This document shows, one piece after another, positions 292-11,000 of a DNA stretch of 64,000 bases. How positions within the stretch are numbered: the stretch's first letter is position 1; every line of letters begins with the position of its first letter. The position numbers were made by a program, and so were the translations under genes. The stretch is from a virus: positions 5,454 through 69,453 of IMG/VR virus record IMGVR_UViG_3300020442_002247. One strand, written 5' to 3'. The notes beneath the pieces were generated by a model. That model had not been told where the DNA came from. It was given only the letters and a program-made list of their open reading frames with translations, and ran no database searches.

Positions 292-349
292 ATCGTTCAT
301 CCTGGAAGGGGACGGAAGTAGCACAAGCGAAGGAACGCACTTTAACTGT
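292..349 (+). ncRNA. glnA RNA: Glutamine riboswitch, glnA-motif (glutamine-I) type
   Basis: AUCGUUCA-[UCCU GGAAG GGGA]-CGGAAGUA-[GC ACAA GC]-GAAGGAACGC. P1 is CGUUC(294-298)/GAACG(343-347), with P2, an E-loop (GAAGUA/GAA) and a short P3. Matches the glnA motif consensus as I recall it. Confidence 0.75.
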
Positions 350-947: not shown

Positions 948-966
948 CATTTTGGTTAAAATAAGG

Positions 967-995
967 TTGACTTTTATTTTAGGATATGCTATATT
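967..995 (+). promoter_or_regulatory. Sigma70-type promoter driving the ncRNA
   Basis: TTGACT(967-972)-17 bp-TATATT(990-995) with an extended -10 TG at 987-988 and an AT-rich upstream region. Confidence 0.8.
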
Positions 996-999
996 AGTA

Positions 1000-1223
1000 A
1001 AATAAGCAACAAGAGAGTAATTAACTCTTGTTTATTAGTGCATCGAAGAGGCGTTTACCAGAGCGTCGAAGATGGCTGTTTAGGGGTGGTACCCAGGCTT
1101 GGTAGTAGAAATACGCTGAGTCACATCGCTCTACCGAGCGGAAACAGGCTCCCTGGATTTGAGAATGGCATCTCGGTCGAGGGGTTGGAGGTGTAACCTA
1201 GTCCTTCCTAATATTGCTTATTT
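1000..1223 (+). ncRNA. Stand-alone highly structured ~220-nt ncRNA (possibly manA-motif-like)
   Basis: GC-rich, with no convincing ORF, between a promoter and a terminator. The 5' AAATAAGCAA (1000-1009) pairs with the 3' TTGCTTATTT (1214-1223). At least six internal hairpins and loop-loop complementarity (UACC/UGGUA) are visible. Confidence 0.75.
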
Positions 1224-1227
1224 CTTT

Positions 1228-1261
1228 AAAAGGTGTACAAGTTTACTTGTATGCCTTTTTT
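1228..1261 (+). terminator. Rho-independent terminator of the ncRNA
   Basis: AAAAGGTGTACAAG-TTTA-CTTGTATGCCTTTT stem (with G-U pairs) followed by a T-run. Confidence 0.85.
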
Positions 1262-1268
1262 CATTTGT

Positions 1269-1276
1269 GATAAATA
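1269..1276 (+). promoter_or_regulatory. T4-like late promoter GATAAATA
   Basis: Recurrent motif, also at 4539, 7923, 18555, 51163, 57002, 57743 and 60136. Confidence 0.75.
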
Positions 1277-1281
1277 CTTAC

Positions 1282-1355
1282 GTCAGATAGCGAAGCCATT
1301 AAGGTGGACTTATGCTGTACCCACAGCGTAGCGGCTAGAACCCGCATCGGACTTC
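1282..1355 (+). promoter_or_regulatory. Structured 5' leader (multi-stem junction) of the first MGRPINK gene
   Basis: GTCAGAT(1282-88)/ATCGGAC(1346-52) encloses three hairpins: GCC/GGT, TATGCTGT/ACAGCGTA and GCGG/CCGC. It ends just before SD AAGGAG. Confidence 0.5.
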
Positions 1356-1372
1356 TATAAAGGAGAAAACAA

Positions 1373-1834
1373 ATGGGAAGACCTATTAATAAAAGATATT
1401 TCGGAGTAGCAGGCACAGGTCCTACTGCGTCTGGAAACGAGATCAAAGTAAATTTTCACAACGGCTCGGGTGTCAAAGAAGGTTACATCGTTAAGCAACT
1501 AGGATCCAAAAAATTCCGTGTTGAAGAGATTGAGACAGCTGGAACATTTGATTGCACATTGAAAACAGGTGTTTTACCTGCGGCTTTATCTTCAGGTGAG
1601 ATGTCAATTTCAGTACAAGGCGTTGATTCAGAAACATATGGCGTAAGCAAAATAGCTGGACGTAAAGTAACTGTAGCTCAACCAAGTGCTACAGGTTCAA
1701 ACGCTCTAGACGGTACATCTATTAAATGGGCTCTTACAGGAGCCGCGGCTACTGGATTAGTTAGAATGGAAGAAGCTGGTGATGATAACACATTGTCTGG
1801 TACAGACGATGACGATTTCACTGAGGACGCTTAA
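1373..1834 (+). CDS. Putative virion structural protein (MGRPINK family, copy 1)
   Basis: Strong SD, late promoter, G/T/S/A-rich composition; paralogous to the next ORF. Confidence 0.65.
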   Translation: MGRPINKRYFGVAGTGPTASGNEIKVNFHNGSGVKEGYIVKQLGSKKFRVEEIETAGTFDCTLKTGVLPAALSSGEMSISVQGVDSETYGVSKIAGRKVTVAQPSATGSNALDGTSIKWALTGAAATGLVRMEEAGDDNTLSGTDDDDFTEDA

Positions 1835-8032: not shown

Positions 8033-11000
8033 ATGGCAGTTGGTCGCATATCAGGTCCGCTCTTAAAGTCAAACCTTGTGAGAAACGGGGTTAACCTGGC
8101 TTTTGAGACAGACTTACTTTATTTAGACGTCAATAATAACCGAGTTGGTATTAAGACTGCTAATCCCCAGGCCGAATTAGATGTAAACGGCACTATACGT
8201 ACAACAAACCTTAATGTAACAACTGGAACAGCAGAATTTGGTGATATTAATATATCCGGCAGTACTATTAGTTCTGACTCTACTTTCTTAAATTTAGGAA
8301 CTTTAGATAATATAGTTTACAACAAGGTTGCATTAATAGATGATTTAAAATTAGAAAACAATACTGTAAGTACCACTGTTAGTAATGCAAATTTAGAATT
8401 TAGACCAAACGGAACAGGCAGTGTAAATGTACAAAGTAACTTAAATGTTACTGGAAATATACATGCTACTGGAAATATTAGTGCAGATGGAGATATAGTA
8501 TTAGGTGATGCTGATACTGATAGCATTACTTTTAATGCTGATGTTAACAGTAATATTGTACCAGATCAAGATAATACTTTTCAATTAGGTACACCTGCAA
8601 AAAGATGGAAAGATGTATATGTTGCAAACTTTAATGCAGATGCTATCACTACAACGTCACTTACAACAGGCGGAGTTGATTTACTTTTAAAACAAGGCAA
8701 TATAATTTATGTTGCAGAAAACGGTAATGATACTAATGACGGTGATCATCCACAAGATCCTTATGCAAGTCTTACTAAAGCACTAAGCGTAGCAACAGCT
8801 GGTGATACAATACATATATTTCCAGGAACTTATACAGAAGCATTTCCATTAACAGTGCCTGCAGGAGTAACAGTTAAAGGTCACACATTAAGAAGTGTAA
8901 TTATAAAACCTACAACAGCAACAGAAACAAAAGATGCATTTAAATTAAACGGTGAAGTAACCATAGAAGATTTGACTGTAATGGATTTTTATAGTGGCTA
9001 CAGCCGATACACAGTTACAGCTGGTGGAGGTTCAAGTGGTAGTGTTACTGTTAACATAGGTGTTGCACCTCAAGCCCATACATATGTCAGTGGTGGTAAA
9101 ATTAACAATACAAGTTTCAGTAGTGAAGTAAATGTAACTGGAGCAACTTATACTCACGGTACTGGAGAACTAGTAGTAACATATTCGGGTACTGTACCAA
9201 CATCAGGGCAAGACTTGATGTTAAAAGATTTAGTTTTTTCTTGTGCAAGTGGAGGAAATCACACTTACCCAAATAACGGATATGCATTTAAGTTTGCAAC
9301 TGATTACAGTGTTACTTCAAGATCTCCGTATATAAGAAATGTTTCAGTAATTACAAAAGGTAGAACAATTACTGCTAGTGATCCAAGAGGGTTTGCTAGT
9401 GGCGATGCTGGTAAAGGAGCGTATATAGACGGTGCATATGCGGCTACTGGTTCTAAAGAAGCTAGTGCATTATTTCATAGTGTAACATTTATCACACCGG
9501 GCGTAGACGGACTTACTTGTACTAACGGAGTAAGAATAGAATGGTTAAATTGTTTTACCTATTTTGCAAATCGCAGTATATATGCGTATGATAGCACACA
9601 AGGAAAATATTCAGACGGTAAAACAAGAATTAGATTAGGCGGAATATCAGGTACATTTGCCGCAGGAAACACAGTAACATTTACATCAACTGACGGAAGC
9701 ACAACAGTAAACATGACTGTTGAAAGTGTTGAGAATGATGTATTAGTTGTAGACGGTAGAAACACAAGCCTTGTTGATTTTGACTCAACACCACAAAGTA
9801 TTTCAAATGGCAGTGGCGCAACAGCAACAAGTATATTAAGCAATAATCTAAAAGACTTTGGAGCTGAAATTAGGACCATAGCCAGTGCATCTGTTTATGG
9901 TAATCAAGGATTAGTCGGCGACGGCCCGGGTGTTCTTGTGTATGCAATTGGACACAATTTAGCTTATATAGGAACAGGAAAAGAAACAACAAACGATCCT
10001 AGTGGTGTTACTCAAGCTAATGAAATTATAGAATCCAATGATGCAAAAATTAGATTTAGTAGTGTTGATCACAAAGGCGACTTCAGGGTAGGAAATTTAT
10101 TCCATGTTGAACAAGACACTGGTACTGTAAATTTTTCTGCAAATGAACTTAATATAAATCTTACAGAAGGTGCAACATTTACTGACGGATCTAACACAAC
10201 TTTTATAAATGGATCTAGAGTAGATACAGGAAATTTAAGACTAACAGGTAATACTTTATCATCTACAAGTGGTGATTTGAATATAGATAGTGCTTCTAAT
10301 TTAATTGTATTAAAAGATGATGTAGATTTAGACGGATCATTGAATGTAGCCGGCGATGCATTTATTGGTGGAAACATAACTTTAGGTGATGCTTCAAGTG
10401 TAAACATAACCATTGTTGCAAGAATAAATTCAGATTTAATTCCAAGCACAACAGATACTTTTAACTTAGGATCCGATGCACTACAATGGAAAAATTTATA
10501 TGTTAATGAAGTTGATGTTGATGATATTTTAATAGACACAAACTTTATTACTACTACAGCATCTAACGCAGATTTAGAATTACGTGCAAATGGCACTGGT
10601 AAGATTTTAATACCTTCCAATAATTTACAAATTGATAATAATCTAACTGTAAATGGCACAAGTAATCTTGGTACAACAAATATCACAGGTACAACATCTG
10701 TAAGTGGAGCAATAAGTTCAACAGGCAGTTTTACAGCATCAGGTATTTTAACAGCAAATAACAAACTTATTGTAACTAGTGATGCAGAATTTGAAGATAT
10801 CAAAATTAGCGGAAATCAAATTACAACTACTAATAGTAATTCTAATTTAGAGCTAAGAGCAAATGGTAGTGGTATAGTAAGTATACCTAGTAATAATCTA
10901 ACAGTCAGTAATAATCTTGTTGCAAACGGAACAATCACAGCAAACGCTTTAGATGTTGCAAATATTAATGCAACTACTTTCAATACAGATAATATACAAA

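What the first reader, a model, noticed from the sequence alone, without database searches (positions are those of the whole stretch)
967..1261. Stand-alone ~220-nt structured ncRNA with its own early promoter and terminator
Seen: an extended -10 sigma70 promoter, a GC-rich ORF-free segment whose ends pair over 10 bp (1000-09/1214-23), and a terminator. Internal helices: AACAAGAG/CTCTTGTT; CATC/GATG enclosing GGCGTTT-ACCA-GAGCGTC; GGG-TGGTA-CCC; GGCTTGGT/GCTGAGTC capped by GTA-GAAA-TAC; CGCTC-TACC-GAGCG; CCCT...TGAGA/TCTCG...AGGG; GGAGG/CCTTCC. Two loops carrying UACC could kiss the UGGUA loop, giving alternative pseudoknots. From memory, parts (UAGGGGUGGUACCC...UACC...GGAGGUGUAA...CCUUCC) resemble the manA RNA motif of marine phages, whose function is unknown; this is unverified. 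Here it looks like an independent early transcript rather than a cis-regulator.
Basis: partly seen in the sequence, partly recalled or inferred. Interest (0 to 1): 0.8.

Follow-up and report, generated by a model that had tools for sequence, protein, structure and literature searches.

The report
Free-standing manA RNA gene in phage
The flagged stretch is a real folded RNA of an uncultured marine giant phage that belongs to the already catalogued manA RNA family, and here it looks like a small gene of its own with a promoter and a terminator, not a switch for the next gene.

Summary
Window 1008-1217 (+) matches Rfam manA RNA (RF01745) at 55.8 bits, just over the 55.2 cut-off.

The unit recurs in 59 of 80 related viral contigs. 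No reading frame is conserved across it. On 43 unique sequences, 87.6% of cells pair, against 38-54% in slid controls.

- **Promoter:** a TTGAC-N15-TGnTAnnnT promoter (967-995) is kept in 41 of 43 sequences.
- **Terminator:** a hairpin plus T-run (1228-1261) is kept in 41 of 43, with many different stem sequences.
- **No switch:** no anti-terminator pairing was found.
- **Downstream gene:** it has its own GATAAATA late-promoter motif (1269-1276) and a freshwater-2 leader.

Elsewhere, 24 of 34 confirmed manA RNAs abut tRNA genes. The other 10 have a promoter directly upstream; 7 also have a terminator hairpin. So this is a free-standing RNA gene, not a 5' leader.

A July 2026 preprint reports that manA RNAs build RNA-only cages in vitro. 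The L5/L7 loops used there are complementary here and change together once.

Transcript ends and timing are not shown. This scan already reached the same reading on related DNA from other genomes. Verdict: a new, divergent member of a known family, of moderate interest.

The parts
967..995 (+). sigma-70-type promoter: -35 TTGACT (967-972), 17-nt spacer, extended -10 TGcTATATT (987-995); predicted start near 1002
   Evidence: 10 of 12 matches plus TG. (the only perfect TTGAC-N15-TGNTATA in 64 kb). (both elements with proper spacing in 41 of 43 unique relatives; the spacer sequence varies). The start site is inferred, not measured.
1000..1223 (+). folded RNA body, including a lineage-specific closing helix P0 (1000-1007 with 1216-1223) that lies outside the paired part of the Rfam model
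   Evidence: fold z = -4.3. (72 pairs, 87.6% of cells paired, 41 pairs with a change on both sides; 0 of 500 shuffles reach this). P0 is 81.6% paired, with little covariation.
1008..1217 (+). match to Rfam manA RNA (RF01745), model positions 1-192
   Evidence: 55.8 bits against a gathering score of 55.2.
1086..1091 (+). loop GUGGUA of the hairpin GGG/CCC (my L5; loop numbers are inferred from the preprint's text)
   Evidence: conserved GUGGU of the model. (complementary to the loops at 1057-1060 and 1132-1135).
1108..1111 (+). GAAA tetraloop capping the long hairpin 1096-1122 (my L6)
   Evidence: The Rfam consensus has gaaa at this place.
1132..1135 (+). loop UACC of the hairpin 1126-1141 (my L7), complementary to GGUA of L5
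   Evidence: A divergent clade has L5 GUAGU with L7 ACUAU or ACUGU, one compensatory change.
1228..1261 (+). intrinsic terminator: 14-pair stem-loop followed by T6 (1256-1261)
   Evidence: (hairpin plus T-run in 41 of 43 unique relatives, at least 10 different stem sequences, -7.4 to -18.2 kcal/mol). (no anti-terminator).
1269..1276 (+). GATAAATA late-promoter-type motif serving the downstream gene (not part of the RNA gene; it marks its boundary)
   Evidence: 15 ATAAATA in the window against 36 expected. Twelve of the 14 on the + strand lie 18-97 nt upstream of a long ORF. The motif is present after the terminator in 26 of 43 unique relatives.
1292..1375 (+). freshwater-2 RNA (RF02980), the leader of ORF 1373-1834; a neighbour, not part of the manA gene
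   Evidence: 72.9 bits against a gathering score of 49.9.

Best explanation
This is a free-standing gene for a manA-family RNA in an uncultured marine giant myovirus.

**Proposed mechanism.** Host-type (sigma-70) RNA polymerase starts near 1002, a few bases before the first helix. It stops at the intrinsic terminator at 1228-1261. The product is a discrete untranslated RNA of about 260 nt whose two ends are clamped by helix P0. The next gene (1373-1834) is served separately by its own late promoter motif and freshwater-2 leader.

**What the RNA does.** The fold is the manA fold. By analogy with the manA RNAs solved in a 2026 preprint, it most likely acts as a self-associating RNA particle. Exposed loops (GUGGUA with UACC) would pair between copies to build closed oligomers. 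Its task in the infected cell is unknown.

**Shown here:**
- family membership;
- conserved structure;
- a conserved promoter and terminator;
- absence of a conserved ORF and of an anti-terminator.

**Inferred:**
- the transcript ends and early timing;
- self-assembly of this particular variant;
- any cellular role.
For: **Membership.** RF01745 at 55.8 bits against 55.2, full-length model.

**Structure.** On 43 unique relatives, 87.6% of cells pair, against 38-54% when partners are slid. 41 of 72 pairs change on both sides, against 12-27 slid, and 0 of 500 shuffles reach this.

**Non-coding.** The 52-aa frame is open in 6 of 43.

**Own promoter.** Both elements are kept in 41 of 43 over a variable spacer.

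**Own terminator.** A hairpin plus T-run in 41 of 43, with at least 10 unrelated stem sequences.

**No switch.** The best pairing of the terminator's 5' arm with the RNA body is no better than for shuffled arms. Mean z is -0.20 and 0 of 43 fall below -2.

**Separate downstream promoter.** GATAAATA at 1269-1276 has the same form and position as the motifs before 11 other long ORFs of the window.

**Separable module.** Of 80 related loci:
- 59 hold the whole unit;
- 4 are cut by a contig end;
- 2 hold a partial unit;
- 8 have the freshwater-2 leader and ORF without it;
- 7 gave no hit.

In several relatives other genes lie between the unit and the ORF, and the upstream gene differs.

**Family-wide layout.**
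- In Synechococcus phage S-CREM1, manA lies exactly between tRNA-Leu and tRNA-Asn.
- Of 34 confirmed manA RNAs from a pattern scan, 24 have a same-strand tRNA within about 11 nt of an end, 19 of them on both sides.
- The other 10 have a TTGACA/TATAAT-type promoter 4-15 nt upstream. Seven of these also have a strong terminator about 68 nt downstream.

**Assembly.** The preprint 10.64898/2026.07.01.735769 reports 60-mer, decamer and octamer RNA-only assemblies of manA RNAs. L5-L7' kissing loops are used in both structural groups. Here L5 and L7 are complementary, and a divergent clade changes both together.

**RNA data.** Contigs of 3 of the 4 metatranscriptome runs laid (3 studies) carry the RNA body of relatives.
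Against: - **No measured ends.** No transcript start or end was measured. The runs laid are contigs, which cannot show ends, strand or level.
- **Contigs that cross the boundaries.** One RNA-library contig covers 965-1205, which includes the promoter. Another bridges the terminator (1200-1351). Read-through or DNA carry-over is therefore not excluded.
- **Upstream read-through.** No terminator was found between the upstream NifU-like gene (ends 861) and the promoter. Upstream transcripts may run into the RNA.
- **Borderline score.** The Rfam score is just over the cut-off. Only 19 of 80 relatives pass it and 40 of 80 reach E <= 0.01.
- **Weak loop evidence.** L5/L7 complementarity is short (4-5 nt). 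It drops to 3 nt in some relatives, and the co-variation is a single event. Sequence cannot tell pairing within one molecule from pairing between molecules.
- **Analogy only.** The solved manA RNAs lack P0 and a terminator hairpin, so assembly of this variant is an extrapolation.
- **Not independent.** The 34 manA loci were picked with a pattern that fixes the L5 sequence, and they include near-identical copies.
Confidence: 0.6

Rival explanations
1. A riboswitch or attenuator. The manA fold would be a ligand-sensing aptamer. The hairpin at 1228-1261 would be its expression platform, gating read-through into the freshwater-2 leader and ORF 1373-1834. This is how the family is catalogued (cis-regulatory).
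For: Rfam types manA as Cis-reg. Weinberg et al. 2010 list it as a riboswitch candidate found in potential 5' UTRs (passages seen). The order promoter, structured RNA, terminator, gene is also that of a transcriptional riboswitch. One RNA-library contig bridges the terminator.
Against: - No anti-terminator: mean z -0.20 and 0 of 43 below -2, and the best pairing site moves between relatives.
- The terminator stems are unrelated between clades while the RNA's 3' part is conserved.
- The downstream gene has its own late-promoter motif.
- That gene occurs without the unit in at least 8 relatives.
- Other manA RNAs sit between tRNA genes.
Confidence: 0.08
2. The 3' part of the upstream message. 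The RNA would be made mainly as the tail of the NifU-like mRNA (454-861), or of late capsid read-through. It would be cut out by processing or would act as a 3'-UTR stabiliser, and the promoter-like site would be incidental.
For: No terminator was found between 861 and 967. A 246-nt contig from an RNA library covers 965-1205, so it includes the promoter. The number of promoter-like sites in the region is no more than chance.
Against: The two promoter elements are kept in 41 of 43 unique relatives while the spacer between them varies. The unit keeps its promoter in relatives with a different upstream gene, for example a 50-aa ORF in L003 and L007. Unrelated manA loci also carry a TTGACA/TATAAT promoter 4-15 nt upstream (11 of the 11 examined).
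Confidence: 0.12
3. A free-standing RNA with another job. It would be made as proposed but act as a monomer: a decoy or sponge for a host protein or defence system, a ribozyme, or a base-pairing regulator. It would not be a self-assembling particle.
For: The stand-alone layout fits any trans-acting RNA. Many manA RNAs sit in phage tRNA arrays, where other RNAs of unknown function are also found. The assemblies were made in vitro at about 3 mg/mL RNA with 10 mM MgCl2 and a 50 deg C step (methods passage). That need not reflect the cell.
Against: Several manA variants from different sources form defined closed oligomers rather than aggregates. The loops used for this are conserved or compensated here. 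No target complementarity or catalytic motif was sought or found.
Confidence: 0.18
4. A small protein gene: the 52-aa GTG frame at 1038-1196 is translated.
For: The frame is open in the window and in 5 other unique relatives.
Against: It is broken by internal stops or frameshifts in 37 of 43 unique relatives. No frame is shared by all of them. I saw no ribosome-binding site ahead of the GTG (read by eye). The changes preserve base pairs instead.
Confidence: 0.01

Closest known systems
manA RNA motif (Rfam RF01745; Weinberg et al. 2010, PMC2864571)
   Same: Full-length match over the gathering score. It has the same helices, the same long-range helix, the conserved GUGGU loop, the ACC-bearing loop and the GNRA-capped hairpin. 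It is carried by a phage.
   Different: - The match is borderline (55.8 bits), against 84-180 bits for 34 other phage manA RNAs.
- The long-range helix is AU-rich (AUUAG/CUAAU instead of GGGAG/CUCCC).
- The junction after that helix is shorter.
- There is an extra closing helix, P0.
- The carrier's capsid protein is closest to GAP32-like phages of about 350 kb, not to cyanophages.
- The layout is that of a gene of its own, not of a 5' UTR.
[quoted passage not shown]
   Same: Same Rfam family. L5 and L7 are complementary here and L6 is GNRA. These are the loops that the preprint's text names as intermolecular contacts.
   Different: The solved RNAs are other variants (named A0F1, 67AA, 6FAB, pho_A28C and pho34_A767). 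Their sequences and figures I could not see, so my loop numbering is inferred from the text. Nothing is known about assembly of a variant that carries P0 and a terminator hairpin, or about assembly in cells.
ROOL, GOLLD and OLE: large RNAs that form RNA-only multimers (10.1101/2024.12.08.627333; search listing and abstract only)
   Same: Structured non-coding RNAs of unknown function, made as free RNAs, that form homo-oligomers. That ROOL and GOLLD are often phage-borne is recalled.
   Different: They are unrelated in sequence and much longer, several hundred nucleotides by the manA preprint's text. No Rfam match to them was found in the window.
manA RNAs inside phage tRNA arrays, e.g. Synechococcus phage S-CREM1 (OP535465; PMC9964418)
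   Same: Same family, also not in front of a protein gene. The ends are set by neighbouring signals, so a discrete RNA is expected.
   Different: In the arrays the ends would be set by tRNA processing; that is inferred. Here they are set by a promoter and a terminator. The window holds no tRNA gene.
Transcriptional riboswitches (aptamer followed by a terminator)
   Same: The order promoter, structured RNA, hairpin with T-run, gene.
   Different: There is no alternative pairing between the RNA and the terminator. The downstream gene has a separate promoter motif. No ligand is known for the family.

Membership tests
manA RNA (RF01745) | Covariance-model score at or above the curated gathering score (55.2 bits) | tested here: met
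   55.8 bits, model 1-192 of 192, window 1008-1217. The margin is 0.6 bit, and the whole-window scan with fast filters missed it.
manA RNA (RF01745) | The family's helices are present and kept by compensatory changes | tested here: met
   87.6% of cells paired against 38-54% slid, and 41 of 72 pairs changed on both sides. One helix (1151-1154 with 1180-1183) is only 48% paired in the MAFFT alignment, where the divergent clades are poorly aligned.
manA RNA (RF01745) | Long-range helix closing the core (marked 'pseudoknot?' by its discoverers) | tested here: met
   1034-1038 with 1208-1212: 95.8% of cells paired, and 3 of 5 pairs changed on both sides. It differs in sequence from the consensus GGGAG/CUCCC.
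manA RNA (RF01745) | Conserved GUGGU loop, ACC-bearing loop and GNRA-capped hairpin between them | tested here: met
   GUGGUA at 1086-1091, GAAA at 1108-1111 and UACC at 1132-1135.
manA RNA (RF01745) | Position in the 5' UTR of a protein-coding gene (the catalogued cis-regulatory type) | tested here: not met
   A terminator follows the RNA and a separate late-promoter motif precedes the gene. This is a catalogue label, not a structural criterion. It also fails for 24 of 34 other members, which abut tRNA genes.
manA RNA (RF01745) | Self-assembly into closed RNA-only oligomers (reported in the 2026 preprint) | not testable with these tools
   Only loop complementarity could be checked. Whether the RNA oligomerises needs native gels, size-exclusion or cryo-EM.
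Riboswitch with terminator platform | Mutually exclusive pairing between the aptamer and the terminator (an anti-terminator) | tested here: not met
   the duplex energy of the terminator's 5' arm with the RNA body is no better than for shuffled arms (mean z -0.20; 0 of 43 below -2).
Riboswitch with terminator platform | Specific ligand binding | not testable with these tools
   No ligand is known for manA. No follow-up was found in the paper library.

The most novel reading that the evidence does not exclude
Marine giant phages would make, from a dedicated host-type promoter inside their late gene block, an RNA that closes into a pentamer-based RNA-only shell in the infected cell. That would be an RNA compartment or decoy particle that holds or hides something, such as a host factor or a small molecule. 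The family's catalogue label as a gene-leader switch would then be wrong. The single metatranscriptome contig that joins 1210 back to 1018 leaves open that part of the RNA is also circularised or permuted.
Probability: 0.15. Interest if true: 0.85.

Novelty: new member of a known kind. Interest (0 to 1): 0.45.

Why it matters
manA has been an orphan 'riboswitch candidate' since 2010. A 2026 preprint reports that it builds the first natural RNA-only icosahedral cage in vitro, yet still describes it as a putative 5'-UTR element.

The gene layout bears directly on whether those cages can matter in cells. It says how the RNA is made: as a discrete free molecule, released either by its own promoter and terminator or by flanking tRNA genes.

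This window shows the layout in a phage lineage whose capsid protein is closest to GAP32-like giant phages rather than to cyanophages. It also gives defined ends for constructs (about 1002 to 1223 or 1261) and a natural compensatory L5/L7 pair to test.

The point is not new within this scan. Several earlier reports reached the same reading on related DNA. I found no paper that states it. The supplements of Weinberg 2010 and of the preprint, which I could not open, may mention the tRNA neighbours.

Tried and rejected
**Searches of the cultured-phage collection**
- blastn and megablast of the region, and of the first 20 kb, found nothing.
- tblastn with ORF 1373-1834 found nothing. The lineage therefore has no cultured member there.
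- blastn with the S-CREM1 manA found only ACG-2014f phages at 72% identity. That is too little for a survey, so I used a pattern scan instead.

**RF01745 in cultured capsid relatives**
- The family was not found in three cultured capsid relatives (MG592671, JN882285, PV764938), nor in G006 and G065.
- This is no evidence of absence. G006 does hold the unit by nhmmer, so the first-look filter misses divergent members.

**Small protein.** Rejected.

**Riboswitch with terminator platform.** Tested and not supported.

**TTGAC after the terminator's T-run**
- I considered this TTGAC, seen in many relatives, as a second promoter.
- It fits in L007, L006 and L063 (TTGACA, 17 nt, TAAAAT, read by eye).
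- It does not fit L003-like loci, where the ORF starts 18 nt after it. I do not rely on it.

**Metatranscriptome runs**
- The index shares were small (0.05-0.11).
- All runs laid are contigs, so depth, ends and strand cannot be used.
- Run X8 had no cover of the RNA body.
- Contigs of X1, X4 and X5 stop near 1205-1220, but alignment clipping at a variable site explains much of that.
- The joint from 1210 back to 1018 rests on one contig in one run with 33 letters on the shorter side.

**Literature.** The reviews PMC10043782 and PMC5473149 hold no whole-word 'manA'.

**Not attempted.** I ran no protein structure or complex jobs, as none was relevant.

Full report
**What is there**

The window is part of a 69,453-base viral record that CheckV rates about 20% complete.
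- It opens with the end of a Gp23-type major capsid gene (1-225).
- A NifU/IscU-like gene follows (454-861), behind a glutamine riboswitch at 292-341.
- After the flagged region come ORFs of unknown family and large baseplate- or fibre-type proteins.
- The capsid protein of a close relative (L003) is most like those of giant myoviruses of 349-469 kb. These are Sinorhizobium phage Phosso (70.5%), Vibrio phage 2.275.O (69.4%), and Cronobacter phage GAP32 and its kin (67.4%). The carrier is therefore not a typical cyanophage.
- No cultured phage in the collection matches the region or the downstream ORF.

**Identity of the RNA**

A focused scan against Rfam places window 1008-1217 (+) in manA RNA, RF01745. 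The score is 55.8 bits against a gathering score of 55.2, and all 192 model positions are matched. A search of the whole record repeats this.

The whole-window scan with fast filters did not list it, so the match is real but borderline.

The fold is unusually stable: -90.9 kcal/mol, z = -4.3 against 200 shuffles. The body is 46% G+C in a 35.5% genome.

**Relatives and structure**

Using ORF 1373-1834 as an anchor, I fetched 80 related viral loci.
- RF01745 reaches E <= 0.01 in 40 of the 80 and passes the cut-off in 19.
- nhmmer with window 960-1380 finds the whole unit in 59 of the 80.
- Four more are cut by a contig end and 2 hold a partial unit.
- Eight have only the downstream leader, and 7 gave no hit.

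The 59 loci plus the window give 43 unique sequences. I wrote the structure from the Rfam alignment plus the closing helix and counted it on a MAFFT alignment of these 43.

| Measure | Observed | Control |
|---|---|---|
| Cells forming a standard pair | 87.6% | 38-54% with 3' partners slid |
| Pairs changed on both sides (of 72) | 41 | 12-27 slid; 27.4 in shuffles |
| Shuffles that reach the observed value | 0 of 500 | |

- The end-to-end helix P0 is 8 pairs (1000-1007/1216-1223). It is conserved but hardly covaries. It lies outside the paired part of the Rfam model, and I saw no equivalent in the other manA loci I read.
- The 52-aa frame at 1038-1196 is open in only 6 of 43 unique sequences.

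**Is it a gene of its own?**

Five lines of comparative evidence say yes.

1. *Promoter.* TTGAC and the extended -10 TGnTAnnnT, properly spaced, are kept in 41 of 43 unique sequences while the spacer varies. The site at 967-993 is the only perfect TTGAC-N15-TGNTATA in the window. The count of promoter-like sites alone is not above chance.
2. *Terminator.* A hairpin followed by a T-run comes after the RNA in 41 of 43. The exceptions are L008 and L028. There are at least 10 unrelated stem sequences, at -7.4 to -18.2 kcal/mol.
3. *No switch.* The terminator's 5' arm pairs with the RNA body no better than shuffled arms do. Mean z is -0.20 and 0 of 43 fall below -2. The best site moves about.
4. 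*Separate downstream promoter.* ATAAATA is depleted in the window (15 against 36 expected). Yet 12 of the 14 copies on the + strand lie 18-97 nt upstream of a long ORF, mostly as GATAAATA. This resembles the T4-type late promoter; the T4 consensus is recalled. One copy sits at 1269-1276, between the terminator and the freshwater-2 leader (1292-1375, 72.9 bits) of ORF 1373-1834. It follows the terminator in 26 of 43 unique relatives.
5. *Separable module.* The leader and ORF occur without the unit in at least 8 loci. In others, genes lie between the unit and the ORF: a 133-aa ORF in L003, and a 578-aa plus a 158-aa ORF in L007. The gene upstream of the unit also differs.

**The family elsewhere**

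In Synechococcus phage S-CREM1 the annotated manA (96.6 bits) lies between tRNA-Leu, which ends 1 nt before it, and tRNA-Asn, which starts at its last base.

A pattern built from the printed consensus found 38 viral loci. 34 pass the manA cut-off, at 84-180 bits.
- 24 have a same-strand tRNA within about 11 nt of an end, 19 of them on both sides. Distances are from pattern-based ends and are good to about 10 nt.
- The other 10 all carry a TTGACA/TATAAT-type promoter 4-15 nt upstream.
  - 7 of them also have a strong hairpin plus T-run about 68 nt downstream.
  - 2 have a T-run right at the RNA's end.
  - 1 has a tRNA-like sequence that ARAGORN does not call.

These loci include near-identical copies, and the pattern fixes the L5 loop. 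The figures describe a sample, not the family.

**What it may do**

The paper library holds no functional follow-up on manA as a switch.

A note from this scan led me to the preprint 10.64898/2026.07.01.735769. I read its abstract, its manA passages and its section on interfaces.
- It reports that manA RNAs form a 60-subunit icosahedral cage, decamers and octamers in vitro.
- These are built from a pentamer that is held by intermolecular kissing loops.
- L5-L7' is used in both structural groups. L6 makes a GNRA-receptor contact in one of them.

I could not see the figures. I take L6 to be the GNRA hairpin and L5 and L7 to be its neighbours; this numbering is my inference.

On that reading the window has L5 GUGGUA, L6 GAAA and L7 UACC. 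UGGUA can pair with UACCG (5 pairs, one of them G-U).
- A divergent clade of 6 unique sequences has L5 GUAGU with L7 ACUAU or ACUGU. Both sides have changed, which counts as one compensatory event.
- L3 (UACCA) and often L9 (ACCA or ACCG) are also complementary to L5. In some relatives L7 is UCCC and matches only 3 nt.
- Sequence cannot tell contacts within one molecule from contacts between molecules.

**RNA data**

Contigs of three metatranscriptome runs from three studies carry the RNA body of relatives.
- In X5, a 69-nt contig is identical over 1080-1143.
- In X4, a 141-nt contig covers 1080-1210 with 4 differences.

Contigs cannot show ends, strand or level.

Two contigs speak against clean boundaries. 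One spans 965-1205, which includes the promoter, and one spans 1200-1351, across the terminator. One contig in X5 joins 1210 back to 1018; this remains unexplained.

**Verdict**

- The element is a divergent member of the known manA family, carried by a phage lineage whose capsid protein is closest to GAP32-like giant phages.
- It is laid out as a free-standing RNA gene. The early timing and the exact ends are inferred.
- The most likely mode of action, self-association into closed RNA particles, rests on analogy with other family members.
- This scan had already reached the same reading on related DNA from other genomes. The finding is therefore a replication rather than a discovery.

Noticed in passing
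window 292-341 and 454-861: A glutamine riboswitch (RF01739, 51.7 bits) sits ahead of a NifU/IscU-like Fe-S scaffold gene. The carrying phage has a capsid closest to GAP32-like giant phages of heterotrophs, not to cyanophages.
   Followed up: partly
window 1269-1375: The freshwater-2 RNA (RF02980) begins about 15 nt after a GATAAATA late-promoter-type motif. It runs into the start codon of ORF 1373-1834. It therefore looks like the leader of a late phage mRNA. ORFs 1373-1834 and 1850-2281 share the N-terminus MGRPINK.
   Followed up: partly
window, whole (15 sites listed): ATAAATA is depleted to 15 copies against 36 expected. Nearly all copies lie just upstream of long ORFs, mostly as GATAAATA. 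This gives a usable late-promoter map of the window.
   Followed up: partly
L007:3687-5899 (also L006, L063): After the manA terminator these relatives carry a 2.3-kb insert. It holds a 578-aa ORF whose sequence looks like a TonB-dependent outer-membrane receptor (read by eye; no family search was run) and a 158-aa membrane protein.
   Followed up: no
L139 and L142, directly after the manA RNA: A sequence resembling the tRNA-Gly of the related locus L155 follows the RNA. Its arms are altered and ARAGORN does not call it; it may be a decayed or variant tRNA.
   Followed up: no
window 1018 and 1210 (run X5): One metatranscriptome contig joins 1210 back to 1018 (goes back 193 letters, 33 letters on the shorter side). 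An Illumina adapter abuts 1028 in another record. This may be an assembly artefact, a tandem copy in a relative, or a joined RNA. An earlier scan note reports joined ends for a manA-like RNA elsewhere.
   Followed up: no
L122:1246-2144 (S-CREM1, record 9745-10643): wcaG RNA, three tRNAs, manA, another tRNA, an abiF-motif RNA and one more tRNA lie head to tail on one strand. This makes a mixed array of tRNAs and other structured RNAs.
   Followed up: partly
L058:5725-6008 and L057:5116-5399: These two relatives hold only the 3' two-thirds of the unit (from about window 1087 on), and the loss is not due to a contig end. It may be a natural 5' deletion.
   Followed up: no
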